Position numbers and translations under genes: made by a program. A stretch of 64,000 nt of DNA from an uncultured Verrucomicrobiota bacterium. Its GTDB lineage: Bacteria; Verrucomicrobiota; Verrucomicrobiia; Limisphaerales; UBA9464. Of this stretch, positions 14,983-48,294 are shown in pieces; the stretch's first letter is position 1; every line of letters begins with the position of its first letter. The notes beneath the pieces are model-generated. The model saw nothing but the letters and a program-made list of their open reading frames with translations, did no database searches and was not told the origin of the DNA. The stretch covers positions 58,112-122,111 of the forward strand of contig CAINWP010000076.1 in the NCBI GenBank assembly GCA_903854475.1, given 5' to 3'.

Positions 14983-17138
<2,156 letters not shown>

Positions 17139-17295
17139 TCCCCGAACGAGCCGAAGTATGGACTTGGACCGCGTCCTCGCCAAAAGGAAAGTAATCCAGC
17201 TCCTGTAATCCTCGGATGCTTTGGCCCGGACCCTCTCGGATTACACCTAAAGTTGGATTCCACCCGTGTCTGGTCGCGGCGGTCTCATCTTGCGA

Positions 17296-32134: not shown

Positions 32135-32208
32135 TGGTTGGCCAACATGGATTCGAACCATGACTAAGGGCGTCAAAGGCCCCTGTGCTACCATTACACC
32201 ATCGGCCA
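32135..32208 (-). tRNA. tRNA-Gln (anticodon UUG), CCA encoded
   Basis: The minus strand reads TGGCCGA-TG-GTG-TAATGGTAG-CAC-A-GGGGC-CTTTGAC-GCCCT-TAGT-CATGG-TTCGAAT-CCATG-TTGGCCA-A-CCA. It folds as a cloverleaf with a U1-A72 pair, a TTCGAAT T-loop and anticodon TTG. Confidence 0.9.
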
Positions 32209-35052: not shown

Positions 35053-36825
35053 ATGGCTGAAGCCTCGACACCCACCCAAACGCTTCTCGATCACATGATC
35101 GCCGAGCGGCAACTTTCTGCCGTTGATGCGTTGGCGTTTGTCCAGGCCCGATCGATCAAGGGAGCTTCAAGCGAAGGGGGTGAGGAAGCTACCGAGCGGG
35201 ATGTCTTAGAATGGCTGAGCCACGAATATGGGGTGGGGTTTCTTCCTTTGGATTCGGTCGAGGCCGATCGCGAGGTACTGGCGCTCTTCCCGGCCCGAAT
35301 TCTCCTCAAGGAAGAACTGCTGCCGCTGCGCCGCGATCACGGTTCTATCGAGATCGCCAGCTGTCGCCTTTTTGCTACTCGGGGGCTGGACACACTCCGC
35401 TCCCTGACAGGCCTCCGTCTCAAATTGGTTTTGTCGCCGCGGGAGGCGCTCCTACGGGAGATGAAGAAGAATCTCGGAGTCGGCGCCGACACCATCGGCG
35501 CACTCGACGAAGAGAAATCTGTCCAGGTCGTCGATGAAAACACCGAGGAATCCAACCTCGACGCCGGAGCCGAGGATGAAGCGTCCATTATACGCTTCGT
35601 AAATCAGGTTCTTAAAGACGCCATTGAGCTGCGGGCTTCGGATATTCATCTGGAGCCCTTCGAGCACGAATTTCGTATTCGCTACCGCATCGATGGCGAA
35701 CTACAGGAAATCCCGCTTCCGGCACAGCTCAAGCAGTTCCAACCGGCCATCGTTTCACGGGTCAAGATCCTCAGTCATCTCAACATCGCGGAGAAGCGCT
35801 TGCCTCAGGATGGGCGTATTAAGGTTCGCATCGAAGATACCGAGGTCGATATCCGTGTTTCAGTGATTCCCATGCTCCACGGGGAGGCGGTGGTCATGCG
35901 TCTATTGCGGCAGAATTCGACCCTGCGGGGTCTGTCCCATATCGGTCTAGGAACCCGCGAGTTGGAGTGTTTTCGGAAGGTGCTGAATTTGCCGCATGGA
36001 ATCGTGTTGGTGACAGGCCCGACCGGCAGCGGCAAGACCTCGACTCTTTACACCGCCCTCAACGAGATCAACGACGAGGTCCGCAAGATCATCACGATCG
36101 AAGACCCCGTCGAGTATCAGCTTCGGGGCGTGAATCAAATCCAGGTTTCGGAGAAGGCCGGACTCACCTTTGCCCGAGGATTGAGGTCTATTCTTCGCCA
36201 CGATCCAGATGTCGTACTGATCGGTGAAATCCGAGATCGGGAGACAGCACAAATCGCGGTGCAGGCCTCGCTGACCGGCCATTTGGTGTTCTCCACGCTG
36301 CATACCAATGACGCCCCGGGCGCGCTGACCCGCTTGGTGGACATGGGGGTTGAGCCTTATCTGGTGGCGTCGTCTCTGGAAGCGGTTCTGGCCCAGCGGC
36401 TGGTTCGAGTCTTGTGTCCTCATTGCAAGGTTCCCGACACCTCGGCTCATGCGAACGCCTTCCGATCTCGCATGGGCATTGCTCCAGAGGTGGAACTCTT
36501 CAAGGGCGTAGGATGTCGCGAGTGCCGGCAAACTGGATTCTTCGGACGTCATGCCATCTTCGAATGGATGGACATCGATGAGAATATCCGTCGGCTGATT
36601 TTGGAAAATGGCTCCACCGACCAAATTCGTTCGGCCGCGCGAACTTCCGGCATGCGGACATTGGCTGAGGACGGCTGGCGGTTGGTAGCTCAAGGCATCA
36701 CGACCGTAGAAGAGGTCCTGAGCGTCACCACGGACAAGGAAACTCCGCGATCCCAGGCACCGGCCGATTCGGGTGAAGCCACCGACCAGACCCGTGGTTC
36801 CGGGGCATCGGGTTCACGCACCTGA
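35053..36825 (+). CDS. gspE: type II secretion / type IV pilus assembly ATPase (GspE/PilB family)
   Basis: N-terminal T2SSE_N-like domain, Walker A GPTGSGKTST, Walker B DPDVVLIGEIRD, His box GHLVFSTLHTN, and tetracysteine CPHCK...CRECRQTG. Confidence 0.9.
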   Translation: MAEASTPTQTLLDHMIAERQLSAVDALAFVQARSIKGASSEGGEEATERDVLEWLSHEYGVGFLPLDSVEADREVLALFPARILLKEELLPLRRDHGSIEIASCRLFATRGLDTLRSLTGLRLKLVLSPREALLREMKKNLGVGADTIGALDEEKSVQVVDENTEESNLDAGAEDEASIIRFVNQVLKDAIELRASDIHLEPFEHEFRIRYRIDGELQEIPLPAQLKQFQPAIVSRVKILSHLNIAEKRLPQDGRIKVRIEDTEVDIRVSVIPMLHGEAVVMRLLRQNSTLRGLSHIGLGTRELECFRKVLNLPHGIVLVTGPTGSGKTSTLYTALNEINDEVRKIITIEDPVEYQLRGVNQIQVSEKAGLTFARGLRSILRHDPDVVLIGEIRDRETAQIAVQASLTGHLVFSTLHTNDAPGALTRLVDMGVEPYLVASSLEAVLAQRLVRVLCPHCKVPDTSAHANAFRSRMGIAPEVELFKGVGCRECRQTGFFGRHAIFEWMDIDENIRRLILENGSTDQIRSAARTSGMRTLAEDGWRLVAQGITTVEEVLSVTTDKETPRSQAPADSGEATDQTRGSGASGSRT

Positions 36826-36828
36826 CCC

Positions 36829-38088
36829 ATGCCCACCTTCACCTACCGAGCACTCCAAGCCGATGGGCAGATGGCCGATGGCATCGCCGAAGCGGCCACC
36901 CGTCCCGAAGCCTTGCGGGTCATCGAAGCGCGAGGGCTTCGTCCCGTCAGCGTCATCGAAGCCCGCGGCAGCGGAAAACCAACCGTCAAATCAGCCAAGG
37001 ATTCAGCCGCCCCCACTCAGGGAATGGGCGGGTGGTCGTTGGGTGGTTCCAAGGTGAGTTCGGAGGAATTAGAGAATTTCACTCGGTTGCTCTCCAGCCT
37101 ACTCGCCGCGGGGGTACCGTTGAGTCGGGCGCTGACCATCCTTGGTAAGGAGGCGTCGTCGCCGGTGGCCTCGGCAAAGTGGCGTGAAATCCATAGTCTG
37201 GTGGTGGATGGTATGTCCCTGGCCAGTGCCATGGCCCGATCCCCGGAAACGTTCCCGAAAGTTTATACGGCGATGGTCGAGGCCGGTGAGGCCGGCGGAT
37301 TTCTCGATGTCGTCCTCGCGCAAATCGCAGACTTCCAGTCCCGAGAAAAGGAGCTCCGATCCAAGGTGCTCACGGCGATGATCTATCCAGCCGTACTGTT
37401 GCTGATGGCCGTGGTGGTGCTGAGCGTGCTGCTGGTCTTTTTCATTCCCAAATTCCAGAAGGTTTTCACCAGCGTGAAAGGCGGCTTGCCCCTCATCACC
37501 CAAATTATTATCGCCACCAGCGACATCTTGCGTTCCTACGGGCTGTTGGTGTTGGTCGGGTTGGTACTGGGGAGTTTCTTTTTGAGAACCTGGATCGTCT
37601 CGCCCGCGGGCCGACGCATTTGGGAAGGGTTGACTTTGAAAGCTCCGGTCGTAGGTCCGCTCAGTGCCCGATTTGCGATGGCGCGTTTTTGCCGAATGCT
37701 GGGGACCTTGATTGGAGCCGATGTCCAGTTGGTTCAGGCACTGAATGTGGCGCGCCGTTCGATTGGTAACCAGATCTTGGTGGATGCTGTGGCACGTTCG
37801 ATCGACCAGGTGCAGCAGGGTGGACGTCTCGGCCAGAGTTTGGCGGAGTGTCCCACCCTCTTCAGCGGGTCCGTGATGGAGATGATCTCGGTGGCGGAAG
37901 AGAGTGGGCGACTGGATGTCGAACTCATCCGCATCGCCAACGTCACGGAGAGTGAATTAGACCGACGTCTTAAAACTGCGGTGGCCTTGGCCGAGCCGTT
38001 GCTCCTCTTCCTGATCGCCGGTTTTATCGGCTTCATCTTTATCGGCATGCTGCTTCCGGTTTTCTCGCTGCAAGACTACATCAAGTAA
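36829..38088 (+). CDS. gspF: type II secretion system F-family platform protein (GspF/PilC)
   Basis: Two T2SSF repeats with three TM segments. Starts 3 nt after the gspE stop. Confidence 0.9.
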   Translation: MPTFTYRALQADGQMADGIAEAATRPEALRVIEARGLRPVSVIEARGSGKPTVKSAKDSAAPTQGMGGWSLGGSKVSSEELENFTRLLSSLLAAGVPLSRALTILGKEASSPVASAKWREIHSLVVDGMSLASAMARSPETFPKVYTAMVEAGEAGGFLDVVLAQIADFQSREKELRSKVLTAMIYPAVLLLMAVVVLSVLLVFFIPKFQKVFTSVKGGLPLITQIIIATSDILRSYGLLVLVGLVLGSFFLRTWIVSPAGRRIWEGLTLKAPVVGPLSARFAMARFCRMLGTLIGADVQLVQALNVARRSIGNQILVDAVARSIDQVQQGGRLGQSLAECPTLFSGSVMEMISVAEESGRLDVELIRIANVTESELDRRLKTAVALAEPLLLFLIAGFIGFIFIGMLLPVFSLQDYIK

Positions 38089-38102
38089 TTCCTTCTGACC
38101 TC

Positions 38103-38558
38103 ATGAACCTGAACCTCACCCTTCGTCCCCAGGCAGGAGCCTTCGCCGGCAAGACACGTCGTCGCCACCGTGGTTTCACGTTGGTTGAGATGCTGTTGGT
38201 CATCACCATTATCGGGATTTTGGCCGCACTTGTGGTGCCCAAGATGATGGGTCGCAGCGAACAGGCCCGACAGTCGGCAGCACGCGCCGACATCGCCTCA
38301 ATCAAAACGGCTCTAGACGCTTACGAGGTGGACAATGGCACCTACCCGAAGGCCTTGGCCGACCTCATTCAGGCCCCGCGGCAGGCCCGCAACTGGCGCG
38401 GACCTTATTTGGACAAGGTCCCTCAAGATCCGTGGGGCAACGAATACCAGTACGCTCAACCTGGACGACAGAATTCTACCTCCTTCGATTTGTCCTCCAT
38501 AGGGCCAGACGGTAAGGCAGGAACCGAGGATGACTTTGGCAACTGGACGGCGAAATAA
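38103..38558 (+). CDS. gspG: major pseudopilin GspG
   Basis: Prepilin motif G/FTLVEMLLVITIIGILAALVVP. GspG core ARADIASIKTALDAYEVDNGTYP...WRGPYL...DPWGNEYQY...GPDGKAGTEDD. Confidence 0.9.
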   Translation: MNLNLTLRPQAGAFAGKTRRRHRGFTLVEMLLVITIIGILAALVVPKMMGRSEQARQSAARADIASIKTALDAYEVDNGTYPKALADLIQAPRQARNWRGPYLDKVPQDPWGNEYQYAQPGRQNSTSFDLSSIGPDGKAGTEDDFGNWTAK

Positions 38559-39132
38559 GAGTCACAGCCCCAAGGGTTCGCGGCAGCAGGGCTTCACCTT
38601 GATTGAAATGATTCTGGTGATGGCGTTGTTGGTTGTCGCTGTCTCGATGGTGTCTCCGCGCCTGTCGGGATTCATCCGCGGACGAGCCTTGGAGTCCGAA
38701 GCCCGTCGGGTTCTAGCCCTGACGCATGCGGCCCGGAGTCGGGCTATTTCCGAGAGCATGCCCGTCCTACTGTGGCTCGACGCCACCGTCGGGCGCTATG
38801 GTGTCGAGCGCGAGACTCCGGGCCAAAAGGGTGATCCGTTGGCTCAGGAGTTCACCGTCGATGACCATCTCCGGATCGCTTTTGATCAGGCCCAGCGCCT
38901 TATCGGCCAGACGTTGACGAGTACCCGCACCACGGGGTTGCTGCCCGGAATCTCCAGTTCTCAAAGACCCACCAACGCCCGGACCGAACCGTCGATCCGA
39001 CTCCTGCCGGATGGGACCATCGATGAGGACAGTCCTAACGCCATTCGCATCGAAGACTCCGATGGGTCCGTGCTGTGGCTCGTCGAAGGGTCGGACCGCC
39101 GCCATTATGAAATTCGCACCGGTCTCCAATAA
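38530..39132 (+). CDS. minor pseudopilin, GspH/FimT-like
   Basis: G/FTLIEMILVMALLVVAV N-methylation motif, then SGFIRGRALESEARRVLALTHAARSRAIS typical of GspH. Confidence 0.75.
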   Translation: MTLATGRRNKSHSPKGSRQQGFTLIEMILVMALLVVAVSMVSPRLSGFIRGRALESEARRVLALTHAARSRAISESMPVLLWLDATVGRYGVERETPGQKGDPLAQEFTVDDHLRIAFDQAQRLIGQTLTSTRTTGLLPGISSSQRPTNARTEPSIRLLPDGTIDEDSPNAIRIEDSDGSVLWLVEGSDRRHYEIRTGLQ

Positions 39133-39529
39133 CCGTCGGCGAGCGGGATACACCCTGGCGGAGACGCTGGCGGCCCTCCTCTTTTTGGCCATCGTCATCC
39201 CCGCCGTGGTCGAGGCGCTGCATGTGGCGGGGCGAGCCGGCACCGTATCTATACGCCGGGCTGTGGCCGCCCGCATTGCCGAACGGATGCTCACCGAGGC
39301 GACCCTCTACACCAATAGCAGCGCCACGCAAAGCGGGACTCAGGTCGAGGGAACGGTGGACTACCAGTGGACGGTGACCCGCGAGAACTGGGTGCAAAGC
39401 AGCCTACCGCTATTGACGGCCGAGGTCCGCTTTTTGACCCAGGGACAGGAGTCCTCGGTTCGGTTCTCTACGCTGGGTCACCCCGTCGATGCCCTCCCCG
39501 GAAGCAGCAGTAGCACCGCCCCCCGATGA
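39107..39529 (+). CDS. minor pseudopilin, GspI-like
   Basis: ATG 39107. Prepilin motif RRAG/YTLAETLAALLFLAIV with Glu at +5. Size about 140 aa. Confidence 0.7.
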   Translation: MKFAPVSNNRRRAGYTLAETLAALLFLAIVIPAVVEALHVAGRAGTVSIRRAVAARIAERMLTEATLYTNSSATQSGTQVEGTVDYQWTVTRENWVQSSLPLLTAEVRFLTQGQESSVRFSTLGHPVDALPGSSSSTAPR

Positions 39530-40230
39530 CCATCCCCGTTTCATCCAGAAGCAGGACTTCAATGGGGTTCACGTTGATCGAACTGATTCTCTCGATCGGG
39601 GCGGCAGCCCTCATCCTTATCGTCGCCAATCAGGTTCTTTTCACGAGTCTTCGGCTCCGCAACACGGTCTCTGATGCGATTGAATCGGCGGCCCCTCTGG
39701 AGTTGGCGCTCGATGCCCTGCGCCAAGACCTCAAGGGTGCGGTGACCCCGAAGACCAATGGACTCATCTCCGGCTCCTTCCGCGCCGGTACCTTGTCCAG
39801 CACGGTCAATGCCCAACCCGTTTCGCTCGAGTTCAATACGACTACCGGTTCCCTGCGGGCTTCAGAGCCTTGGGGTGTGGTCCAACGGGTTTCTTACAGT
39901 CTGCGGAATTCGGTTGAAGGAGGATCGGCGGAGATGGATCTCTATCGGGGCGTGTGCCGAAATCTCCTGGCCATCTCTGTAGCCGAGGTCGAGGACCAAC
40001 TCCTCTTGCGCGATGTGGCTCGTCTGGATGTTGAATCCTTTGATGGGATTCAGTGGCTTTCCCAATGGGACACCACCGATACCTTTGGTAGTACCACCAA
40101 TCTTCCGGTGGCCGTGCGTATTCGTCTCCAGCGTGGGGTTTCTTGGGGTCCCGACCCGGGACTCGTCGAATTATTGGTGCCCGTGAGCGCCCAGACACGC
40201 ACCAACTCCACCAGCACCGTCGGAGGCTGA
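39526..40230 (+). CDS. minor pseudopilin, GspJ-like
   Basis: MG/FTLIELILSIGAAALILIV prepilin motif. ATGA overlap with the upstream gene. Confidence 0.7.
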   Translation: MTIPVSSRSRTSMGFTLIELILSIGAAALILIVANQVLFTSLRLRNTVSDAIESAAPLELALDALRQDLKGAVTPKTNGLISGSFRAGTLSSTVNAQPVSLEFNTTTGSLRASEPWGVVQRVSYSLRNSVEGGSAEMDLYRGVCRNLLAISVAEVEDQLLLRDVARLDVESFDGIQWLSQWDTTDTFGSTTNLPVAVRIRLQRGVSWGPDPGLVELLVPVSAQTRTNSTSTVGG

Positions 40231-40232
40231 GC

Positions 40233-41663
40233 ATGGTACTTCAAACCCTGAGCCAGAAAATGAGGACGCGGGCGGTCCTAGACCGGCCCAAGCTCCAGAT
40301 GGATCGTCGCGCCGGGTCCCGGGCGTCGGTTCTGGTGGTGGTGCTGTGGATCACGGCTGGATTGACCGCGCTGGTTCTCTACTTTGCAGCCTCCATGAGT
40401 TTGGAGTTGCGGGCTTCGGCCAATCGAGCGGCCGACCTGGCGGCCGGTCAGGCCATCGAGGGCGCCGCGCGCTATGTGGGATGGGCCTTGGCTCAGTTCG
40501 CCACCAACGGGATGATGACCACCAATTCCCAGTTTGTTTGCCAGGCTTTGCCCATCGGAGAATCTCAGGTCTGGATTTTGGGCCGCAATCCGGCCCCCGC
40601 AGAATCCGGGCTCAACCAGTTGGTTTTTAACCTTCAGGACGAGTCGGGAAGGCTCAATCTCAACCGGGCCAATTCCAATGCTCTTTCGATGTTGCCTGGG
40701 ATGACCACCGAGTTGGCTGCCGCCATCGTGGATTGGAGGAGCACCAACGGGACCTTGCAGTTGGGTTATTCGAGTTTGGGCTATGAAGCCAAGCGGAGTC
40801 CGTTTGAAACGGTCGATGAATTGCGCTGGGTCCAGGGCATTACCTTAGATCACCTCTTCGGGGACGATCGCAACCAGAACGGGGTTCTCGACCCAGACGA
40901 ACGCAGCCTCACTGGATCCTTGTATTCGACTCCGGGCCTATTGGATACGACCACCGTCTTCAGTCGGGAGCCCAATTTCCATGCCGATGGCACTCTCCTC
41001 ACCAACGTCAATATCCGAGCCCAAATCCAGGGATTGCTCGATTCGTCCTTCGGCACCGGCCGTAGCCGCGAAATTCTCACTCGCTTAGGCTTCACCCAGG
41101 GCGGGGGCCCTGGGGGAGGAGGCGGGGGAGGAGCCGCGGCTGCGACGCCCAATTTCCCGAGTTTACTGCGTTTTTATCTAACCAGCGGTCTAAGCCAAGA
41201 TGACTTCGAACGCATCGCCCCGGAACTTTGCGTCACCACCAATACTTACAGCTATGGGCGGGTGAACCTGAATACGGCCAACGCCACGGTCCTCACTGCA
41301 CTTTTTGTTGGGGCGGGCTTGGCTCAAGAAGCTGCAGAGGGCGCGGCATCGACACTCGTTCAGTATCGGGAACAAAATACGACGAGCCTGAATTCCATCG
41401 CTTGGATGGTGGCCGCACTCGGTCGTGATCATCAGGCCGTAACCACTTTGGCTGGCCGCGATCTCCTTACGACCCGGAGCTTCCAATATGGAGCCGACCT
41501 GGTGGCCGTGGGGCCCTTGGGCCGAGGTTATCGCCGAGTGAAGTTCATTTTTGATATCAGTGATGGAGTCCCGAAGATCCTTTACCGTCAGGATCTCAGC
41601 CGATTGGGCTGGGCATTGGGCGACCGTGTCCGTGAGCAGATCGCCCAGCAAATCGATCGCTAG
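40233..41663 (+). CDS. GspK-like minor pseudopilin with helix-hairpin-helix motifs
   Basis: Hydrophobic N-terminus SVLVVVLWITAGLTALVLYF without Glu+5 (as in GspK). LNLNRANSNALSMLPGMTTELAAAIVDWR and VNLNTANATVLTAL are HhH/SAM-like motifs typical of GspK. Confidence 0.7.
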   Translation: MVLQTLSQKMRTRAVLDRPKLQMDRRAGSRASVLVVVLWITAGLTALVLYFAASMSLELRASANRAADLAAGQAIEGAARYVGWALAQFATNGMMTTNSQFVCQALPIGESQVWILGRNPAPAESGLNQLVFNLQDESGRLNLNRANSNALSMLPGMTTELAAAIVDWRSTNGTLQLGYSSLGYEAKRSPFETVDELRWVQGITLDHLFGDDRNQNGVLDPDERSLTGSLYSTPGLLDTTTVFSREPNFHADGTLLTNVNIRAQIQGLLDSSFGTGRSREILTRLGFTQGGGPGGGGGGGAAAATPNFPSLLRFYLTSGLSQDDFERIAPELCVTTNTYSYGRVNLNTANATVLTALFVGAGLAQEAAEGAASTLVQYREQNTTSLNSIAWMVAALGRDHQAVTTLAGRDLLTTRSFQYGADLVAVGPLGRGYRRVKFIFDISDGVPKILYRQDLSRLGWALGDRVREQIAQQIDR

Positions 41664-41683
41664 ATGAAGGCCCAGACCACCCC

Positions 41684-43126
41684 ATGATGAATTTTCTGAA
41701 ACTGGGTTCCCGTCCGCGCAAAGCCCCGCCCTCCGTACTGGGGCTTTCGTGGGAGGGCCGTCGCATCGAGGGCAGCCTCTTGCGCCGGACTCAGAACGGG
41801 ATTGAGAAAACGCTCGGATTTCAGGCCGAACTGTCTCTGGACATTGATTCGGGTGATCCTGAAACCGTCGGCAAGGAGTTACGGGCTCAGCTAGATCAGG
41901 CTGGTATTCGGGAACGCACCTGTGCGGTGGCCCTGTCGGTTTCTAGCCTGCTGGTCACCCAGACTGAAATTCCAGTCTTGGCCGATGCCGATGCACACAG
42001 CTTGTTGCAACTGGAGGCGGAGAAGGGTTTTCACGGCGACGCTTCGACCCATCAGGTGGCCCACTCGCGCTGTGTCCGGGGTGAGGGTAGCCAATGGGTG
42101 ACCTTAGCCGCATTGACGCAATCTCGTTTGGCCTCTCTGGAACGTTGGACTCGTTCTGCGCGCCTCAAGTTGGTGAGCGTTTCGGCGACCCTGTGCGAGC
42201 TCCAGCCTCCTGAAAATCCTGCCTCGGAGGGGGTCCTCGCGTTGCACCTCGGATCCGGGCCGGGTCCGGTGACACTCCAGATGAGCGCTGGAGGCGGTCT
42301 GGTGGCCTTGCGTTCCTTCGAGGGCGTTACCGAAGACCCGTCTGGCCGACCGGTTTTACATGCCGACAGCGTCGCACGGGAGATTCGGATTACGTTGGGG
42401 CAACTCCCAGATCCTTGGAATGGCTCCATTCGCGATGTTCGCATCTTTGGCCCCCAAGACCTGGCGCAAACGCTGGCCGCTGAGCTGTCCACGCGATTGT
42501 CGGTGGCCGGTTTCCGCATCCGCCCCCAGACCACCGAAGTGCCCGGGTTGGCCTCGTCTCAAGAGCTCCCAATTTCAGCGGTGGTCGCAGCCCGTGTACT
42601 GGCCTCGCGGCCGGCGACCCTCGAGTTCCTGCCGCCCAAGCCATCGGTGTTCCAACAATTCTTGGCCCGTCACGCCCAAGGGCAGCGACGCACGGTCTGG
42701 ACGGTCGCCGGCGGCGTGGCTGTCCTGGTGGCTCTGGCTTTCCTGATTCAGCAAATCCAACTCTCGCTCTTGGAATCCCGTTGGGCGGGTCTCTCAGGCA
42801 AGGTCCGGGAGCTGGAACGCATCCAGCAAGATTTGCGACAATTCCGACCTTGGACCCCTCAGTCGGCCCGGGGCTTGGCGATTTTGGAGGTTCTGACGAG
42901 CGCCTTCCCCGAGAACGGATCGGTGACCGCCAAGGTCATCGAAATTCGAGAATCGGGCGAGGTGGTCTGCAGTGGCACGGCCACCGATAATCCGGCTTTT
43001 TTGGCCATGACGGCCCGTCTGAGCGCCTTGCCCGGAGTCCTCAAGGTTCACCACGACCAATCCCGTGGTGTTTCTCCGATGCAGTTCAACCTCACCTTCG
43101 TCTGGAATGGAGGCATGGCCCGATGA
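41684..43126 (+). CDS. PilM-like cytoplasmic domain fused via one TM helix to a PilN-like periplasmic domain (GspL-equivalent)
   Basis: The N-terminal ~330 aa show a PilM/actin-like pattern (VLGLSWEGRRIEGSLL...CAVALSVSSLLVTQTEIPVL...LLQLEAEKGF). TM helix TVWTVAGGVAVLVALAFLIQQI. Coiled-coil plus ferredoxin-like C-terminus. Confidence 0.6.
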   Translation: MMNFLKLGSRPRKAPPSVLGLSWEGRRIEGSLLRRTQNGIEKTLGFQAELSLDIDSGDPETVGKELRAQLDQAGIRERTCAVALSVSSLLVTQTEIPVLADADAHSLLQLEAEKGFHGDASTHQVAHSRCVRGEGSQWVTLAALTQSRLASLERWTRSARLKLVSVSATLCELQPPENPASEGVLALHLGSGPGPVTLQMSAGGGLVALRSFEGVTEDPSGRPVLHADSVAREIRITLGQLPDPWNGSIRDVRIFGPQDLAQTLAAELSTRLSVAGFRIRPQTTEVPGLASSQELPISAVVAARVLASRPATLEFLPPKPSVFQQFLARHAQGQRRTVWTVAGGVAVLVALAFLIQQIQLSLLESRWAGLSGKVRELERIQQDLRQFRPWTPQSARGLAILEVLTSAFPENGSVTAKVIEIRESGEVVCSGTATDNPAFLAMTARLSALPGVLKVHHDQSRGVSPMQFNLTFVWNGGMAR

Positions 43127-43659
43127 ATCCCACCCAACGTCAACGTCTCCTCATGATCGTGACCCTGGCCGCAGTGGGTCTCTACATCGCCGACCTCGTG
43201 TTCATCACGCCGATGGGCCGAGCTTGGTCGGAGCGCTCAGCACGCATCGCCACGCTGCAGCGTCAGGTGAGCGAGGGACGGGCGTTGATCCAGCGCGAGG
43301 GAGGACTTCGGGATCAGTGGAACCACTTGCGCACCAACGCCCTGCCGCATGAACCGTCCCAGGCCGAGCAACGTCTGCTTCGGGCCTGCGATGAATGGGC
43401 CAAGGCGTCCGGGGCTCAAATCGTGGATCGAATGCCGCAGTGGAAGGGCGACGAAGCCGCCTACCAACTGTTGCGGTGTCGCCTCGAGACTTCCGGGTCT
43501 CTCGCGAGTTTGACTCAGTTTATCCAGCGGATTGAAGAGGGTCCGTTGGCCGTCAAGGTCGATAGCCTTCAGATGATGAGCCGCGATCCGGCCGGTCGTC
43601 AGTTGACTCTCAGCCTCCAAATCAACGGCCTCGTGCTCAATCCCTCGTCTAAGCCATGA
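43123..43659 (+). CDS. PilO/GspM-like bitopic assembly protein
   Basis: N-terminal TM helix LLMIVTLAAVGLYIADLVFI, a coiled-coil, then a C-terminal alpha/beta domain. ATGA overlap on both sides. Confidence 0.55.
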   Translation: MNPTQRQRLLMIVTLAAVGLYIADLVFITPMGRAWSERSARIATLQRQVSEGRALIQREGGLRDQWNHLRTNALPHEPSQAEQRLLRACDEWAKASGAQIVDRMPQWKGDEAAYQLLRCRLETSGSLASLTQFIQRIEEGPLAVKVDSLQMMSRDPAGRQLTLSLQINGLVLNPSSKP

Positions 43660-44270
43660 AGGTTCCTCCCTCAATTTGGATTGGTTTCCTAGTGGCCGAG
43701 GTCCTGTTTGGGTCCTTGCTGGGTTTCGCTGCCGAGACTCATCCGACGCCGGTGATCGACTCCAAGGAGGTGGCGCGTCGGGTGGGCGATCGAAACATTT
43801 TCGATCCAGAAAGGCAGCCCAAGATCCGGGGTGAATCTCGACCGGCACCCAAGCCGAAGGCGGTGGCCTCGGCTGACGCCCCTGAGTTTGGACTCGTGGG
43901 AGTCATAACCTATCCGAGAGGCACCTTTGCCTTCTTTGACGGCAACACCGCGGACCTTCGCAAGACCCTCCAGGTGAACGCGGTCATCGCCGGCCAGACC
44001 CTGAGCCTCGTTTCTCCCCAGTCGGTCACCTTGTTAGGGTCCAATCGCCCTCCAGTTTTGCTGAAGGTGGGTCAACGGCTCCGTCAAGATTCGGAGGGCG
44101 CTTGGCAATTGTTGTCCGGCACCGGCGGAGATGGGTTCAAGCGAGTGGGCTCAGCCGAGGGAGCGACCGGAACAGCGGCCGCCTCGTCGACGACTCCGAG
44201 CGAGGACCCCCCGGGATCCGATGAAATTTTGAAGCGGCTTTTGAAAAAACGGGAACAGGAGATGAAATGA
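43656..44270 (+). CDS. PilP/GspC-HR-like periplasmic protein
   Basis: N-terminal hydrophobic anchor. Beta-rich core FGLVGVITYPRGTFAFFDGNTADLRKTLQVNAVIAGQTLSLVSPQSVTLL resembles the PilP/GspC homology region. Confidence 0.5.
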   Translation: MKVPPSIWIGFLVAEVLFGSLLGFAAETHPTPVIDSKEVARRVGDRNIFDPERQPKIRGESRPAPKPKAVASADAPEFGLVGVITYPRGTFAFFDGNTADLRKTLQVNAVIAGQTLSLVSPQSVTLLGSNRPPVLLKVGQRLRQDSEGAWQLLSGTGGDGFKRVGSAEGATGTAAASSTTPSEDPPGSDEILKRLLKKREQEMK

Positions 44271-45553
44271 AGACCTTGATCACTCGAGCCTTTGGCGCCG
44301 CCTGTGCTGTGGGATGTTTGGCTGGCGGCCTGTTAGCTCAGGATGCCGGTGCACCCACTAGCAATGCCCCAGCCACCACCCGAACGGAAACGACCACGAG
44401 TCCGTCGCCCGCGCCCCGGGAACAGAACTCGGCGGCCGGCAGTGCTGCGGGGATTCAGATGAATTTCAGGAATGCTCCATTGGAGCAGGTTCTTGAATAC
44501 CTGAGCGAAGCGGCCGGTTTCATCATCGTTTTGGACGCGCCTATTAAGGGCACCGTCAACGTGATTAGCGCCAAGCCCATGAGTCAGGACGAGGCGGTGG
44601 ATTTTCTGAGTTCAGCACTCAACAAGAATGGTCTGGCCGCCATTCGGGATGGTCGAACTCTGACCATTATCGACCGCACAGCGGCCAAGACCCGGGACAT
44701 CCCGGTGAAGGTGAACAACGATCCCCGGATGATTCCGAAGAACGATGAGATCGTGACGCAAATCATTCCGATCCGATACGTCGAGGCCGATCAATTGGCC
44801 AAGGATCTCGTCTCCTTCATTTCGCCTCAGGCGACCTTCGTGGCTAATGCCGCCGGCAACTCCATCGTGATGACGGACACCCAAGCCAACATTCGGCACA
44901 TGGTGGAGATCATCAAAGCCATCGACTCGAGTGCCGAAGCCGAGACCGAAATTCGTGTGTTCCATCTGACCCATGCCAGCCCTTCCGATGTGGCCACCGC
45001 CCTGGCTGGGGTGTTTCCCACCAGCAGCGGGTCGGGAAACAACAATCAGGCGCCGGTCCGGTTTGGTGGGGGACCCTTCGGAGGAGCAGGAGGTTTTGCG
45101 GCAATGATGGGAGGCGGCGGTGGTGGCGGTGGACGAGGCGGCGGTGGCGGTGGTGGTGGTAATTCCGCGTCCGGACAAAACGATCGGATCCGTCGTGCAT
45201 CGCAGGTCATGGCGGTGCCCGATTCACGGACCTCTTCAGTCATCGTGACCGCTTCCAAGAATCTGATGACACAGATTGCGGGTATGGTGCGCGAATTGGA
45301 TGTGGTTTCCACACGGGACCAGCAAGTGCACGTGTTTCGTATGAACAACGGCGATCCTCAGCAGGCGGCGCAGGTGCTGCAGAACATGTTCCAGAGCACA
45401 TCGGGCAGCCGGACAGGCGCCAGTGGCAGTGCTCAGAACAGTGCGCTCATGCAGCGCCAGCAAAACAACAACCAGACCACGGGCAGCACCTCTAGTGGAT
45501 CGGGTACCTTTGGGAATAGCGGCGGTGGCCGCTCCGGCGGGCAACTGTTCTGA
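44267..45553 (+). CDS. secretin N-domain protein (N0 + two complete and one half N1-type modules; no secretin C-domain)
   Basis: Signal peptide. N0-like MNFRNAPLEQVLEYLSEAAGFIIVLD...GRTLTIID. Modules IIPIRYVEADQLAKDL...IVMTDTQANIRHMVEIIKAIDS and IRVFHLTHASPSDVATALAGVF-[polyGly]-VMAVPDSRTSSVIVTASKNLMTQIAGMVRELD. Ends with VHVFRMNNGDPQQAAQVLQNMF plus a S/G/N/Q-rich tail. Confidence 0.8.
   Translation: MKTLITRAFGAACAVGCLAGGLLAQDAGAPTSNAPATTRTETTTSPSPAPREQNSAAGSAAGIQMNFRNAPLEQVLEYLSEAAGFIIVLDAPIKGTVNVISAKPMSQDEAVDFLSSALNKNGLAAIRDGRTLTIIDRTAAKTRDIPVKVNNDPRMIPKNDEIVTQIIPIRYVEADQLAKDLVSFISPQATFVANAAGNSIVMTDTQANIRHMVEIIKAIDSSAEAETEIRVFHLTHASPSDVATALAGVFPTSSGSGNNNQAPVRFGGGPFGGAGGFAAMMGGGGGGGGRGGGGGGGGNSASGQNDRIRRASQVMAVPDSRTSSVIVTASKNLMTQIAGMVRELDVVSTRDQQVHVFRMNNGDPQQAAQVLQNMFQSTSGSRTGASGSAQNSALMQRQQNNNQTTGSTSSGSGTFGNSGGGRSGGQLF
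45064..45160 (+). repeat. GGN-codon low-complexity tract (poly-Gly loop insertion)
   Basis: Encodes GGGPFGGAGGFAAMMGGGGGGGGRGGGGGGGG inside an N-domain loop. Confidence 0.8.
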
Positions 45554-45579
45554 ACTTAAGAACCTTGAACGATTCTAGA

Positions 45580-46896
45580 ATGAAAACCAGTGGTTCTATC
45601 CTTTCGCGATTCCTTTCCACGGCCCCGGTGCTCCGCGTGTTGGTCGCGCTCCTCGGATTGTCCCTAGTCCTACCCGCCATAGCCCAACAGCGCGGCGGTG
45701 GTGGTGGTGGCGGGTTTGGTGGTGGCGGTGGATTCGGCGGCGGCGGCGGGTTTGGCGGCGGCGGGTTTGGTGGTGGTGGCGGAGGCAATCGAGGCACCGG
45801 ATCCTCGGGTCTCTATAACAACAATGGCACTGTTGGCAGCGCCCTCATCACGGTGGATCCGCAGACCCACAATCTCGTGGTCATCGCCGACGCCCTGACG
45901 GCCCTGCAAATTAGCAACGTCATCCGGAATCTCGACTCACCTAAGCCGCAAGTGCTTATCAAGGTGGTCTTCATGGAGGTTCAGCGAAACAACGGCTCCG
46001 AACTCGGAGTCGAAGGCGCTTGGGCCAAGAACAACATTGGAAACAACATTAGCAGCGGCGGTGGGACCGTGATGGGTCTATCCGGGGTCAACACGATTAC
46101 CACCAACTTGAACGGCTTGGGGCAATCGATGGGAACGGCACTGACTCCGTCCTCCACCGGCAGCGGTTCCGGTGGTCTTTATTCCATCGCCGGCTCCGAG
46201 TTTCAGGCGACGCTCCGAGCTGTGGCTACATCGGGTAAAGCGCAGGTTTTATCCCGTCCGTCGATCATCGCCCGCGATGGGCAATTGGCGCGCATCGTGG
46301 TCGGTCAACAAGTGCCCCTGCCCAGTGGCGTTTCCTATGCGGCTTCGGGTAACAACACCATCCCCATTATTAACGTCACCTACAATGACGTGGGCATCAT
46401 CCTTAACGTCACTCCATTCATCGGTTCTAATGGTCAAGTCGAGATGATCGTCCAACCGCAAATCTCTTCAGTTTCACCGACTGAAAAGCAGTTCTTGTCG
46501 GCCGATGTTTCGGCTCCTTACATCAATGTCCGTTCAGCCGACACCGTGGTGGTCACTCCAAATGCGGAGACTGTTGTCATTGGCGGACTCATCTCGAATA
46601 ACCAATCCCAGAGCGAGAAGAAGGTTCCGTACTTGGGTGATATCCCGATTCTGGGCAATTTGTTCAAGACTCGCGCCAAGAGCGACGCCAAGACCGAACT
46701 GCTCATCTTTCTGACGCCCTACATTCTCCAGGCACCTTCTCAGTTGGCTCAATTGACAACGAAGGAAACCCACCAAGCGTCGTTGATCACCAATTCGGTC
46801 TCAGAGATGGATCTCAACCGATTCCTTGAAAAGGTTCCGGTCAAATCAGACGCCCCGGCCCCGGCCCCTAAGTCCAAGGGATTCTTCAAAAAGTGA
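45580..46896 (+). CDS. secretin (GspD/PilQ family C-domain) with its own signal peptide and poly-Gly N-terminus
   Basis: ATG 45580 with signal peptide MKTSGSILSRFLSTAPVLRVLVALLGLSLVLPAIA. A (G4-5F)n tract follows, then ITVDPQTHNLVVIADALTALQISNVIRNLD. Secretin core: QVLIKVVFMEV...SRPSIIARDGQLARIVVGQQVP...VGIILNVTP...VPYLGDIPILGNLF...ELLIFLTPYIL. Confidence 0.85.
   Translation: MKTSGSILSRFLSTAPVLRVLVALLGLSLVLPAIAQQRGGGGGGGFGGGGGFGGGGGFGGGGFGGGGGGNRGTGSSGLYNNNGTVGSALITVDPQTHNLVVIADALTALQISNVIRNLDSPKPQVLIKVVFMEVQRNNGSELGVEGAWAKNNIGNNISSGGGTVMGLSGVNTITTNLNGLGQSMGTALTPSSTGSGSGGLYSIAGSEFQATLRAVATSGKAQVLSRPSIIARDGQLARIVVGQQVPLPSGVSYAASGNNTIPIINVTYNDVGIILNVTPFIGSNGQVEMIVQPQISSVSPTEKQFLSADVSAPYINVRSADTVVVTPNAETVVIGGLISNNQSQSEKKVPYLGDIPILGNLFKTRAKSDAKTELLIFLTPYILQAPSQLAQLTTKETHQASLITNSVSEMDLNRFLEKVPVKSDAPAPAPKSKGFFKK
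45694..45787 (+). repeat. tandem GGN/TTY-codon tract encoding (GGGGGF)n
   Basis: ggcggtggtggtggtggcgggtttggtggtggcggtggattcggcggcggcggcgggtttggcggcggcgggtttggtggtggtggcggaggc. Confidence 0.8.
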
Positions 46897-47064
46897 CCCG
46901 CGCACTGAGTGGAGCCCGGCCAGCTCAGTCATCGGAGTGACCCGCTGGGTGGTCAGCACCAAAGTGTCGTTGACGGCGAATTAACTGCCCAACAGGGTCG
47001 GCCGACGGGAGCCGGCAGAGAGCCTCTACATCGGGGCCCTTCGGAGACCCCAATCACCTTGATT

Positions 47065-48294
47065 ATGAGCAAACTCGATTCCGTTTACGCGAAACTTCAG
47101 GTCAAGACCGGGGCCAAAATGGCACTCATCGTTCTCGACGGCCTAGGAGATCTAGCGACCCGTTCCCAGAATTGGATGACGCCGTTGGAGGCGGCCAAGA
47201 CCCCGAACCTCGACGCCCTGACCCAATCGGGGTGCGCCCAAGGACGGATGATTCCGGTGGCACCGGGCATTACCCCTGGATCGGGTCCCGGACATCTGGC
47301 CCTCTTCGGTTACGACCCCATCGAATGGGAGGTCGGCCGAGGTGTGATCGAGACGCTGGGTTTGGGCATCGAGCTCAAGAATGGGGACGTGGCGGCACGG
47401 GCTAATTTCTGCACCCTCGATCCCAAGGGAATCGTCACAGACCGTCGCGCCGGTCGCATTGCGACCGAGGTTTGCGAGCGTTTGTGTGGAATCCTCTCTG
47501 CTAAGATTCAGAAGATCGGCGCAACCGAGGTTCACATTTATCCGGGCAAGGAGCATCGCTTTGTCGTGGTGTTCCGGGGTCAGGGTCTGGAAGGCCCGCT
47601 GACGGATACAGATCCCAACCGCGAGGGGCTCCAGATCGCCGAGGCCAAGCCGGTGGATCCGCAGAATGCCGGCCAGAAGAAGGTCGCCAAACTGATCGCC
47701 GATTTCTACAAGCTGGCCTTGCCGCTCTTGGCGGGTGAGAAGATGGCCAACGGGTTCCTCATGCGCGGTGTTGCCCATCAGCCTGAAATTCCGACTTTCG
47801 AGCAGCGCTACGGTCTGAAGGCGGCAGCGATCGCGGTCTACCCGATGTACAAGGGTTTGAGCCAGTTGGTCGGCATGGTGAAGATTGAGGGACCGGAAAC
47901 GATCGCCCAGCAGTTTGAGCGATACGTGAAGGAGTACGACCAATACGACTTTTTCTTCATCCACTACAAGTACACTGACAAGGCCGGCGAAGACGGCGAT
48001 TTCGCGGCCAAGGTTAAGGCCATCGAGGACTTCGATGCCGCTTTGCCCATCTTCTTGGCCAAGAAGCCCGATGTAATAGCGATTACGGGCGACCATTCCA
48101 CACCGGTCGCCGTGAAGGGTCACTCGTGGCATCCGCAGCCGGTGCTCATCCACTCCGAAATCAGCGGCAGCGACAAGCTGTCCCGTTTCACGGAGACAGG
48201 AGCTAATTCCGGATCCCTTGGTATCTTTGAGGCCAAGTATCTCATGCGTCTGATGCAGGCCAATGCTCGTCTGTTCGACAAGTACGGCGCCTGA
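47065..48294 (+). CDS. apgM: cofactor-independent phosphoglycerate mutase, archaeal-type (ApgM)
   Basis: ALIVLDGLGD..., ITGDHSTP and full-length ApgM-family similarity. ATG at 47065. Confidence 0.85.
   Translation: MSKLDSVYAKLQVKTGAKMALIVLDGLGDLATRSQNWMTPLEAAKTPNLDALTQSGCAQGRMIPVAPGITPGSGPGHLALFGYDPIEWEVGRGVIETLGLGIELKNGDVAARANFCTLDPKGIVTDRRAGRIATEVCERLCGILSAKIQKIGATEVHIYPGKEHRFVVVFRGQGLEGPLTDTDPNREGLQIAEAKPVDPQNAGQKKVAKLIADFYKLALPLLAGEKMANGFLMRGVAHQPEIPTFEQRYGLKAAAIAVYPMYKGLSQLVGMVKIEGPETIAQQFERYVKEYDQYDFFFIHYKYTDKAGEDGDFAAKVKAIEDFDAALPIFLAKKPDVIAITGDHSTPVAVKGHSWHPQPVLIHSEISGSDKLSRFTETGANSGSLGIFEAKYLMRLMQANARLFDKYGA

What the first reader, a model, noticed from the sequence alone, without database searches (positions are those of the whole stretch)
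44267..46896. Secretin encoded as two separately exported polypeptides, split inside an N-domain at a poly-Gly loop
ORF A (44267-45553) has a signal peptide, an N0-like domain and two complete beta-alpha-beta-beta-alpha N-modules. It ends with only the first beta-alpha half of another module (VHVFRMNNGDPQQAAQVLQNMF), a S/G/N/Q-rich tail, and a TGA at 45551. ORF B starts 26 nt later (ATG 45580) with a canonical-looking signal peptide (MKTSGSILSRFLSTAPVLRVLVALLGLSLVLPAIA/QQ). It continues with a (GGGGGF)n tract, then what reads as the missing beta-beta-alpha half (ALITVDPQTHNLVVIADALTALQISNVIRNLD). That half runs directly into the secretin pore domain. The preceding complete module in ORF A has a poly-Gly insertion in exactly the equivalent loop (…ALAGVF-[G-rich 60 aa]-VMAVPDSRTSSVIV…). 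The gene therefore appears to have been cut at a pre-existing Gly-rich loop, with the distal half gaining its own export signal. This implies a two-chain secretin whose N3-like domain might be reconstituted in trans. Caveat seen in the sequence: ORF B's frame is open back to a TAG at 45517-45519, so a single-base indel within 45520-45550 would fuse the two ORFs. In a fused protein, though, the hydrophobic signal-like segment would sit in the middle of a periplasmic domain.
Basis: partly seen in the sequence, partly recalled or inferred. Interest (0 to 1): 0.65.

Follow-up and report, generated by a model that had tools for sequence, protein, structure and literature searches.

The report
Naturally split type II secretin gene
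The outer-membrane channel protein (secretin GspD) of a type II secretion system is encoded here as two adjacent genes cut in the middle of a small periplasmic domain, each half with its own export signal. This is a real arrangement, conserved across a large clade of Verrucomicrobiota-like bacteria, and not a sequencing error.

Summary
ORF A (44267-45553) carries a signal peptide, N0, N1, N2 and only the beta1-alpha1 half of N3. ORF B (45580-46896) carries a signal peptide, a (GGGGF)n tract, the beta2-beta3-alpha2 half of N3 and the secretin pore. On the GspD model TIGR02517 they cover positions 1-296 and 294-600. They close a complete gspE-F-G-H-I-J-K-L-M-C operon.

It is not an indel artefact. 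In 73 related metagenome loci (57-99% identity) A always ends in a stop codon. A short gap follows (19-38 nt in 66 of 74 loci including the window; the larger values are start-picking errors), and B starts with its own signal peptide. The A-to-B reading frame takes all three values.

About 35 protein clusters (50% identity level) share the split. They form one clade against fused relatives (NJ bootstrap 90/100). The nearest fused relatives, Planctomycetota GspD, have a continuous ~100-residue Gly/Phe-rich loop exactly at the cut. Both orphan half-domains are among the most conserved segments.

That N3 re-forms in trans is inferred, not shown. Two-gene secretins are known in Rhc type III systems, and fragmented GspD in mitochondrial T2SS. 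I found no report for bacterial T2SS, so I class this as a new variant of a known kind.

The parts
35053..44270 (+). Upstream T2SS genes of the same operon: gspE 35053-36825, gspF 36829-38088, gspG 38103-38558, gspH 38530-39132, gspI-like 39011-39529 (weak), gspJ 39526-40230, gspK 40143-41663, an ORF in the gspL position 41684-43126 (no Pfam hit), gspM/PilO-like 43123-43659, and an ORF in the gspC/PilP position 43656-44270 (no Pfam hit).
   Evidence: Pfam hits. The same gene order is found in related loci L009, L093 and L095.
44267..45553 (+). [quoted passage not shown]
44267..44338 (+). ORF A signal peptide (aa 1-24, predicted cleavage LLA|QD). The Cys at position 17 is not conserved, so this is not a lipobox.
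   Evidence: Inspection of homologue N-termini. Segment identity is low at 0.39. AF2 pLDDT is below 50 for residues 1-60.
44453..44941 (+). N0 (about aa 63-140) and N1 (about aa 162-225) domains.
   Evidence: Pfam PF21305 and PF03958. AF2 secondary-structure elements. Alignment to GspD structures 5wq7 and 3ezj.
44948..45301 (+). Complete N2 module: beta1-alpha1 (aa 228-250), a Gly-rich loop of about 60 aa (aa 251-312, nt 45017-45202), and beta2-beta3-alpha2 (aa 313-345).
   Evidence: AF2: E227-233, H239-249, disordered 253-308, E315-319, E324-330, H331-344. Coordinates.
45323..45391 (+). Orphan first half of N3 (beta1-alpha1; QVHVFRMNNGDPQQAAQVLQNMF, aa 353-375).
   Evidence: It aligns to beta1-alpha1 of N3 in fused relatives. 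AF2 gives only helix 364-376 at pLDDT 50-61. Mean pairwise identity is 0.81, second only to N1 (0.83) among the segments measured in ORF A.
45392..45550 (+). S/G/T/Q/N-rich tail of ORF A, with the conserved motif QNSALMQRQQNN (45434-45469) and the conserved C-terminal GGQLF-COOH (45536-45550).
   Evidence: The tail is disordered in AF2.
45551..45579 (+). TGA stop of ORF A (45551-45553) and the 26-nt intergenic gap. No promoter-like or terminator-like site was found, so the genes are presumably co-transcribed.
   Evidence: The gap is 19-38 nt in 66 of 74 loci (window included), with 26 nt the most common value. The relative frame varies (0 in 17 loci, +1 in 16, +2 in 41).
45580..46896 (+). ORF B, the C-terminal part of GspD ('GspD-C', 438 aa): second half of N3 plus the secretin pore.
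45580..45684 (+). ORF B signal peptide (aa 1-35; n-region with K2, R10 and R19; h-region VLVALLGLSLVL; c-region PAIA; predicted cleavage AIA|QQR).
   Evidence: The architecture is conserved in complete homologues while the sequence is not. AF2 gives a helix at 16-34.
45685..45840 (+). Mature N-terminus QQR, the (GGGGF)n tract (31 Gly in 49 aa) and the conserved YNNNGTVGS lead-in.
   Evidence: Disordered in AF2. In more distant members the composition changes to S/T-, Q/P- or N-rich.
45841..45936 (+). Orphan second half of N3 (beta2-beta3-alpha2; ALITVDPQTHNLVVIADALTALQISNVIRNLD, aa 88-119).
   Evidence: AF2: E88-92, E99-103, H105-118, pLDDT about 78. Secretin_N profile positions 25-69 of 69. 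Aligns to 5wq7 residues 287-321. Identity 0.75.
45937..46896 (+). Secretin pore domain (about aa 122-385), conserved C-terminal helices (aa 387-418) and the stop codon.
   Evidence: PF00263, E = 6.7e-48. The Foldseek top hits are PulD, GspD and XcpQ. AF2 secondary structure.

Best explanation
This is a genuine, anciently fixed fission of the T2SS secretin gene gspD. The break lies in the long, disordered, Gly-rich variable loop of the N3 domain, between alpha1 and beta2.

Shown:
- The two genes are adjacent and apparently co-transcribed at the end of a complete gsp operon.
- ORF A encodes a signal peptide, N0, N1, N2 and N3 beta1-alpha1.
- ORF B encodes a signal peptide, a low-complexity linker, N3 beta2-beta3-alpha2 and the pore domain.
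- The arrangement, including the second signal peptide, is conserved over a large monophyletic clade.
- The nearest fused relatives carry a continuous loop at the cut site.

Inferred:
- Both chains are exported by Sec and cleaved by signal peptidase I (A after LLA, B after AIA, leaving N-terminal Gln).
- ORF B alone multimerises into the outer-membrane pore.
- ORF A's C-terminal beta1-alpha1 inserts into ORF B's beta-beta-alpha half. This rebuilds the N3 ring non-covalently and hangs the N0-N2 rings below it, for contact with the inner-membrane platform.
- The new free ends (A's conserved tail ending in Phe, B's GGGGF tract) occupy the position of the N3 variable loop. In solved secretins that loop is disordered, and it accounts for the periplasmic constriction of the channel.

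The fission itself was most likely tolerated because the loop was already long and unstructured. It may be close to neutral.
For: - Domain mapping: (TIGR02517 positions 1-296 against 294-600).
- Operon.
- Not an artefact: 120 + 120 homologues, essentially all complete ones of half length. In 73 related loci plus the window, a stop (TGA 38, TAA 36), a short gap and an ATG start are always present, and all three relative frames occur.
- Signal peptide conserved as a feature, not as a sequence.
- Fused relatives with a continuous G/F-rich loop of about 100 aa at the cut.
- Same cut position in members only 37-40% identical (L090, L091, L093, L095).
- Single clade: NJ bootstrap 90/100.
- Purifying selection on the orphan halves: identity 0.81 (A half) and 0.75 (B half) against 0.68 for the pore domain.
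- A's half has low AF2 confidence on its own, and its beta1 strand is not formed.
- Literature: the N3 loop is unmodelled in PulD, and 'N3 domain constriction sites' lie within the channel (PMC6882859). There is a 59-aa gap in N3 of Deinococcus GspD (PMC10828601). The InvG N3 variable loop is disordered and accounts for the periplasmic constriction (PMC6155069).
Against: - No direct test of the A-B interaction was possible.
- SignalP was not run. Cleavage of ORF B's signal peptide rests on motif conservation alone.
- There are no expression, proteomic or structural data for any member.
- The phylogeny is neighbour-joining on 295 columns only.
- Taxonomic assignment rests on the names given to MAGs.
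- The conserved tail motifs of ORF A (QNSALMQRQQNN, C-terminal Phe) are not explained by simple fold complementation. They could indicate a different docking mode.
Confidence: 0.7

Rival explanations
1. Assembly or sequencing indel, or a recent pseudogene: the real gene is one continuous gspD.
For: ORF B's frame is open back to 45517, so a single indel could fuse the ORFs in this one sequence. The low-complexity G-rich DNA nearby is error-prone.
Against: ORF A homologues 97-100% identical come from many independent assemblies and have the same length. 73 related loci down to 57% identity, and further loci down to 37%, all keep the stop, the gap and the start. The relative frame is 0, +1 or +2 in different lineages, and same-frame cases still carry a stop codon. 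Both halves are under strong purifying selection. A fused protein would carry a signal peptide in mid-chain.
Confidence: 0.01
2. Programmed frameshift or stop-codon readthrough makes a single fused GspD from the two ORFs.
For: The genes are adjacent with a short gap. The window would need a -1/+2 shift.
Against: The required shift differs between lineages (0, +1, +2), stop codons are TGA or TAA, and gap length and sequence are not conserved. No slippery-site conservation is apparent in the 20 nt upstream of the start. ORF B's conserved n-h-c signal peptide and A-x-A site only make sense at an N-terminus.
Confidence: 0.02
3. The two proteins are both functional, but N3 is not rebuilt in trans. 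ORF A would attach to the pore or the platform by other means (for example its conserved tail and C-terminal Phe, or N-domain ring contacts), or it would act as a free periplasmic adaptor. The half-domains would be conserved for other reasons.
For: ORF A's tail carries conserved motifs absent from fused relatives. AF2 does not form beta1 in isolated ORF A. In Rhc T3SS the two secretin genes have different origins yet 'complementary function' (PMC3459982).
Against: A beta1-alpha1 fragment of 23 aa cannot fold alone, yet it is the second most conserved segment measured in ORF A (0.81, against 0.83 for N1). Its partner half in B is conserved to 0.75. The hydrophobic pattern of both halves matches intact N modules and the continuous N3 of fused relatives. 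The cut position is invariant across the clade.
Confidence: 0.2
4. ORF B's N-terminal hydrophobic segment is an uncleaved signal anchor. It would tether the pore subunit to the inner membrane through the flexible Gly-rich linker.
For: The n-region is long (about 20 aa) in the window's close relatives. A flexible linker of about 45 aa follows.
Against: A small residue at -1 (Ala) and an allowed residue at -3 lie directly before an almost invariant QQR (0.91) in nearly all members. This is typical of signal peptidase I sites. In distant members the h-region is short (about 10-14 aa). Secretins must reach the outer membrane.
Confidence: 0.05

Closest known systems
Canonical single-chain T2SS secretin GspD/PulD/XcpQ (TIGR02517; PDB 5wq7, 6hcg, 5wln)
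   Same: The domain order is the same (N0-N1-N2-N3-secretin core). It sits in a gsp operon context. The pore domain matches by sequence and by fold. There is a variable disordered loop in N3.
   Different: Here the protein is two polypeptides with two signal peptides, and the chain is broken between alpha1 and beta2 of N3. Neither half alone reaches the TIGR02517 cut-off (194 and 249.5 bits against 351.35). The N2 and N3 loops are very long and Gly-rich.
Fused GspD of Planctomycetota (Tepidisphaeraceae, Phycisphaerales; e.g. P0262, 845 aa), the nearest unsplit relatives
   Same: About 35-40% identical over both halves. The architecture is the same, including the Gly-rich loop in N2 and a G/F-rich loop of about 100 aa in N3 at exactly the position of the cut.
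   Different: One continuous chain. There is no internal signal peptide, and no conserved QNSALMQRQQNN or C-terminal Phe motifs.
Two-gene secretin of Rhc-family type III secretion systems (RhcC1/NolW + RhcC2; HrcIIC1/HrcIIC2 in Pseudomonas syringae T3SS-2)
   Same: The secretin function is divided between an N-terminal-domain protein and a pore-domain protein. This is conserved within the Rhc-family T3SS (rhizobia and P. syringae T3SS-2), and its functional significance is unknown (PMC3574062, PMC3973906).
   Different: It belongs to a T3SS, not a T2SS. The genes are not adjacent. According to PMC3459982 it arose by partial gene replacement, since RhcC2 is Tad/CpaC-like with a BON domain, and not by simple fission. 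No intradomain cut has been described. The window proteins score far better on GspD than on SctC models.
Mitochondrial T2SS of some eukaryotes (GspD, GspDL, GspDN1-3; Horvathova et al. 2021, PMC8134430)
   Same: GspD is 'split into multiple polypeptides'. GspDN3 and GspDN2 correspond to the N-terminal and C-terminal halves of a Secretin_N domain, so the break point within the N-module fold is the same.
   Different: It is eukaryotic, the genes are dispersed, and N0, N3 and part of the C-domain are missing from the pore subunit. Sequences were not compared here. Convergence is the default assumption.

Membership tests
T2SS secretin GspD (TIGR02517 equivalog) | N0 domain followed by Secretin_N repeats (N1-N3) | tested here: met
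   ORF A has PF21305 and PF03958. AF2 shows N0, N1 and N2. N3 is present only as two halves on two chains.
T2SS secretin GspD (TIGR02517 equivalog) | C-terminal secretin pore domain (PF00263) with the GspD-type fold | tested here: met
   ORF B matches PF00263 at E = 6.7e-48. PDB sequence hits XcpQ, GspD and PulD have E = 3e-42 to 4e-34. The Foldseek top hits are PulD, GspD and XcpQ.
T2SS secretin GspD (TIGR02517 equivalog) | Full-length match of one polypeptide above the curated cut-off (351.35 bits) | tested here: not met
   ORF A scores 194.2 bits (model positions 1-296) and ORF B 249.5 bits (model positions 294-600). Each is below the cut-off, and only together do they cover the model.
T2SS secretin GspD (TIGR02517 equivalog) | Encoded within a gsp operon (ATPase GspE, platform GspF/L/M/C, pseudopilins GspG-K) | tested here: met
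   with synteny in L009, L093 and L095. The GspL- and GspC-position ORFs have no Pfam hit.
Type IV pilus secretin PilQ (TIGR02515) | PilQ-type match above the cut-off; AMIN domains; pilMNOPQ context | tested here: not met
   168.9 bits against a cut-off of 284.35. There is no AMIN hit. The neighbours are GspG/H/J/K pseudopilins.
Rhc-type two-gene T3SS secretin (RhcC1/RhcC2) | Part of a type III secretion cluster; SctC-type sequence | tested here: not met
   The SctC model TIGR02516 scores 27.6 and 106.9 bits against a cut-off of 238.45. The operon is T2SS.
Rhc-type two-gene T3SS secretin (RhcC1/RhcC2) | N-terminal-domain protein and pore-domain protein encoded by separate genes | tested here: met
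   Here, however, the genes are adjacent and derive from one ancestral gene.
Sec/SPase I-dependent exported protein (for ORF B) | Positively charged n-region, hydrophobic h-region of 10 or more residues, small residues at -1/-3, located at the N-terminus | tested here: met
   Inspection of the window and of more than 100 homologues. AF2 gives a helix at 16-34.
Sec/SPase I-dependent exported protein (for ORF B) | Prediction by a trained signal-peptide predictor, or an experimentally determined mature N-terminus | not testable with these tools
   SignalP is not available, and no proteomic data exist.
Mitochondrial-type fragmented GspD (GspDN2/GspDN3 half-domains) | Sequence relationship to the eukaryotic GspD/GspDN families | not tested
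   The eukaryotic sequences were not retrieved. Only the architectural parallel is noted.

The most novel reading that the evidence does not exclude
The non-covalent N3 joint would be functional and not neutral. The pore half (ORF B) would assemble in the outer membrane on its own. The N0-N2 vestibule half (ORF A) would dock reversibly through half-domain complementation, aided by its conserved tail (QNSALMQRQQNN ... Phe-COOH). That would make a detachable or regulated coupling between the outer-membrane channel and the inner-membrane platform. The 15 x 2 free Gly/Phe-rich ends would hang in the lumen as a flexible second gate. A weaker corollary is that the same break point in the N-module seen in mitochondrial GspDN2/GspDN3 reflects descent from such a split bacterial GspD and not convergence.
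Probability: 0.15. Interest if true: 0.8.

Novelty: new variant of a known kind. Interest (0 to 1): 0.58.

Why it matters
Secretins are the giant gated outer-membrane channels of type II and III secretion, type IV pili and filamentous phages. Several questions about them are still open:
- how their periplasmic N-domain rings assemble;
- how they pass the cell wall;
- how they couple to the inner-membrane machine.

A natural, widely conserved secretin in which the pore half and the vestibule half are separate proteins offers three things:
- It is a ready-made system for asking which half does what. Examples are pore assembly without N0-N2, the order of assembly, and the stoichiometry of docking.
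- It is a natural example of fold complementation, in which one small domain is built from two chains, within a large membrane complex.
- It provides a bacterial parallel to the half-N-domain proteins of the mitochondrial T2SS, and a contrast to the rhizobial two-gene T3SS secretin, whose significance is also unknown.

There is also a practical consequence. Annotation pipelines and secretion-system detectors that expect a single full-length GspD (neither half reaches the TIGR02517 cut-off) will mis-score these systems in Verrucomicrobiota and related phyla.

Tried and rejected
(1) The genome-contig scan with ORF B as a single query was wasted. I therefore have no species-level taxonomy from GTDB genomes. 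Taxon labels come from names given to MAG proteins: Verrucomicrobiota/Verrucomicrobiae for close relatives, 'Candidatus Sumerlaeota' and 'Candidatus Acidoferrum' for two distant split members, and Tepidisphaeraceae/Phycisphaerales for fused relatives.

(2) My heuristic for picking ORF B's start and cleavage site mis-called several loci, for example internal Met or GTG starts that give gaps of 50-84 nt. The 19-38 nt gaps and the MKT... starts are the reliable ones.

(3) In the first tree, several short sequences labelled 'split' fell among fused clades. Inspection of their N-termini shows they are gene fragments cut by contig ends, with no Met and no signal peptide. They were excluded.

(4) ORF A as a lipoprotein (AVGC) was rejected, because the Cys is replaced by F, Y, V or W in close homologues. 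ORF B as a lipoprotein was rejected because the Cys in the h-region of distant members is preceded by L or F, not G, A or S, and it is absent in the window.

(5) Pfam found nothing for the ORFs in the GspC and GspL positions, so a PDZ domain that might bind ORF A's C-terminal Phe could not be identified.

(6) The organism of the complete genome OW818685.1, which carries a split secretin (L093), could not be identified.

(7) Covariation between the two halves was considered and not attempted. With about 57 unique, closely related pairs and very conserved segments it would be uninformative.

(8) Literature searches for a described split bacterial T2SS secretin found none. The library is limited to open-access papers, so absence is not proof.

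Full report
**Observation**

- ORF A runs from 44267 to 45553 (428 aa) and ends in TGA at 45551.
- A 26-nt gap follows.
- ORF B starts at ATG 45580 and ends at 46896 (438 aa). It lies in a different reading frame.
- ORF A matches the N0 domain and two Secretin_N modules (Pfam).
- ORF B matches the secretin pore domain, plus a weak hit to positions 25-69 of the 69-position Secretin_N profile, which is the second half of an N module.
- On the NCBIfam GspD model TIGR02517, ORF A covers positions 1-296 and ORF B positions 294-600. Together they make one GspD, cut cleanly at one point.
- Aligned to E. coli K-12 GspD (5wq7), ORF B residues 79-121 fall on residues 279-321. That is the beta2-beta3-alpha2 part of N3 just before the pore domain.

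AlphaFold2 with alignments gives the same picture.
- ORF A has N0 (66-140), N1 (162-225) and a complete N2 (227-344) with a disordered Gly-rich loop at 253-308. After that comes only a lone helix (364-376, pLDDT 50-61) and a disordered tail.
- ORF B has a hydrophobic helix at 16-34, a disordered stretch at 32-82, then strand 88-92, strand 99-103 and helix 105-118, and the barrel from 124.
- Foldseek puts the ORF B model on PulD, GspD and XcpQ.

**Context**

The two ORFs close a complete T2SS operon:
- gspE, gspF, gspG, gspH, a weak gspI, gspJ and gspK;
- an ORF in the gspL position;
- a gspM/PilO-like gene;
- an ORF in the gspC position.

There is no promoter-like or terminator-like site between A and B. 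There is no second secretin in the window.

**Artefact or real?**

The arrangement is real.
- A search of 5.8 billion proteins returned 120 best hits for each half. Essentially all complete ones are half-length: about 400-440 aa for ORF B and about 420-450 aa for ORF A. ORF B homologues reach down to 55% identity and ORF A homologues to 62%.
- Several ORF A homologues from independent assemblies are 97-100% identical and have the same length.
- Every complete ORF B homologue begins with a Lys/Arg-containing n-region, a hydrophobic core and an A-x-A site followed by QQRGGG.
- A metagenome scan gave 80 loci. In the 73 that contain both halves, A always ends in a stop (with the window, TGA 38 and TAA 36).
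- The gap is 19-38 nt in 66 of 74 loci (window included). The larger values are start-picking errors.
- B starts with ATG in 70 of 74 loci.
- The A-to-B relative frame is +2 in 41 loci, 0 in 17 and +1 in 16.

A frameshift artefact or programmed recoding cannot produce all three frames. Distant secretins from Methylococcaceae and Acidobacteriaceae in the same analysis are ordinary single ORFs.

**How old and how wide?**

- An exhaustive HMMER search of 1.84 billion cluster representatives shows about 30-35 clusters, at the 50% identity level, of the short form. That form has a signal peptide, a low-complexity linker, a half N3 and the pore. These clusters reach down to about 37% identity.
- Loci of four distant members (L090, L091, L093, L095) again have an upstream A-type gene. 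It is 519-894 aa where complete (L090's copy is cut by the contig end). In each it ends with a beta1-alpha1 half (for example DKKVFVYKPKNANPEDVQTIIQSMF) followed by a low-complexity tail.
- The downstream B-type gene in each starts with a signal peptide. One of these loci lies on a complete 6.0-Mb chromosome (OW818685.1).
- In a neighbour-joining tree of the half-N3-plus-pore region, 35 split representatives separate from 48 fused ones with 90/100 bootstrap support. This fits one ancient fission.
- Names attached to the sequences place the window's relatives in Verrucomicrobiota. Two distant split members are labelled Sumerlaeota and 'Acidoferrum' MAGs.

**Where was the cut?**

- The nearest fused relatives (P0262, P0268, P0273, P0278; 814-855 aa; about 39-40% identity to ORF B) are Planctomycetota GspD, from Tepidisphaeraceae and Phycisphaerales.
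- They are collinear with A + B, and in N3 they have three consecutive parts. The first is beta1-alpha1 (TFFIYPLKNGQAMDMQATLNSLF). The second is a continuous loop of about 100 residues rich in Gly and Phe. The third is beta2-beta3-alpha2 (VYVVADADTNSLLVSTATKYEVRVRDIIAQLD).
- The literature describes the N3 variable loop as unmodelled or disordered. In PulD, residues 288-303 are missing (PMC6882859). In Deinococcus GspD there is a 59-aa gap (PMC10828601). In InvG the loop is disordered (PMC6155069).

**Are the halves still used together?**

The evidence is indirect but consistent. Mean pairwise identity among 57 unique A/B pairs:

| Segment | Chain | Identity |
|---|---|---|
| Orphan beta1-alpha1 half of N3 | A | 0.81 |
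| N1 | A | 0.83 |
| N0 | A | 0.73 |
| Signal peptide | A | 0.39 |
| Orphan beta-beta-alpha half of N3 | B | 0.75 |
| Pore domain | B | 0.68 |
| Signal peptide | B | 0.29 |
| QQR at the predicted mature N-terminus | B | 0.91 |

A 23-residue beta-alpha fragment that cannot fold alone (low AF2 confidence, beta1 strand not formed) is nevertheless one of the most constrained parts of the protein. The simplest explanation is that it completes N3 on ORF B.

This step is an inference.

**Unexplained**

ORF A's tail is low-complexity, but it carries conserved features that the fused loop lacks.
- The motif QNSALMQRQQNN has identity 0.75.
- The C-terminal residue is aromatic. It is QLF in 117 of 120 close homologues, ends in Phe or Tyr in most diverged loci, and is ...GRSF and ...GGSRF in two distant members.

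This outer-membrane-protein-like ending on a periplasmic chain may be a docking element. It was not tested.

**Comparison with the known**

- Two-gene secretins are known in Rhc-family T3SS (RhcC1/NolW and RhcC2). They are described as a distinguishing feature of unknown significance (PMC3574062, PMC3973906).
- Abby and Rocha showed that the Rhc case arose by partial gene replacement, with RhcC2 being Tad-like (PMC3459982). It is therefore not a simple fission.
- In the mitochondrial T2SS of some eukaryotes, GspD is split into several polypeptides. GspDN3 and GspDN2 are the N-terminal and C-terminal halves of a Secretin_N module (PMC8134430). That is the same break point within the fold.
- I found no description of a split bacterial T2SS GspD. 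The searchable library holds open-access papers only.

**Verdict**

- The artefact caveat is refuted.
- The feature is a conserved two-chain T2SS secretin produced by gene fission inside the N3 variable loop, with a second signal peptide acquired by the pore half.
- It is a new variant of a known kind. Interest is moderate to high (0.58). It is not a new principle, but it is a clean, widespread and apparently undescribed natural experiment on secretin architecture.

Noticed in passing
window 45392-45550 (ORF A tail); also L091 1611-3605, L093 6238-8922: ORF A's low-complexity tail keeps a motif QNSALMQRQQNN and a C-terminal aromatic residue (QLF in 117 of 120 close homologues; xQF, xLF, ...SF and ...RF in diverged members). 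The ending resembles that of outer-membrane proteins, and it has no counterpart in the continuous loop of fused relatives.
   Followed up: partly
L009 9276-13543; L093 10445-13497; L094/L095 7334-10463: In distant members, the split secretin is followed directly by a HisKA sensor kinase and a sigma-54-dependent response regulator. In the window the next gene is instead a phosphoglycerate-mutase-like metalloenzyme (46909-48294).
   Followed up: no
proteins P0333, P0366, P0368, P0372, P0378 and others: Among the more distant hits are giant proteins of 1,500-4,700 aa with the secretin pore domain at the extreme C-terminus. They cluster together in the NJ tree. A preprint on giant genes (10.1101/2023.11.21.568195) appeared in the literature search, but I did not read it.
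   Followed up: no
L091 1611-3605 (664 aa), L093 6238-8922 (894 aa), L095 4396-5955 (519 aa), L009 6535-7965 (476 aa): The A-type half varies from 428 to 894 aa across the clade, with extra N modules or long Pro/Ala-rich N-terminal linkers. In every case it ends with the same beta1-alpha1 half module.
   Followed up: partly
window 40143-41663 (gspK): The GspK homologue also carries a poly-Gly insertion (…QGGGPGGGGGGGAAAATP…). Long Gly-rich loops therefore recur in several periplasmic components of this operon.
   Followed up: no
window 17043-17154 (-) and 32138-32208 (-): There is a TPP riboswitch (Rfam RF00059, 67.2 bits) and a tRNA gene elsewhere in the window. Both are unrelated to the finding.
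   Followed up: no
proteins P0289, P0349, P0255, P0280 (N-termini): The low-complexity linker after ORF B's signal peptide changes composition across the clade: Gly/Phe here, Ser/Thr-rich, Asn/Ser-rich, or (QQQPI)n repeats elsewhere. Disorder is conserved while the FG-like composition is not.
   Followed up: partly
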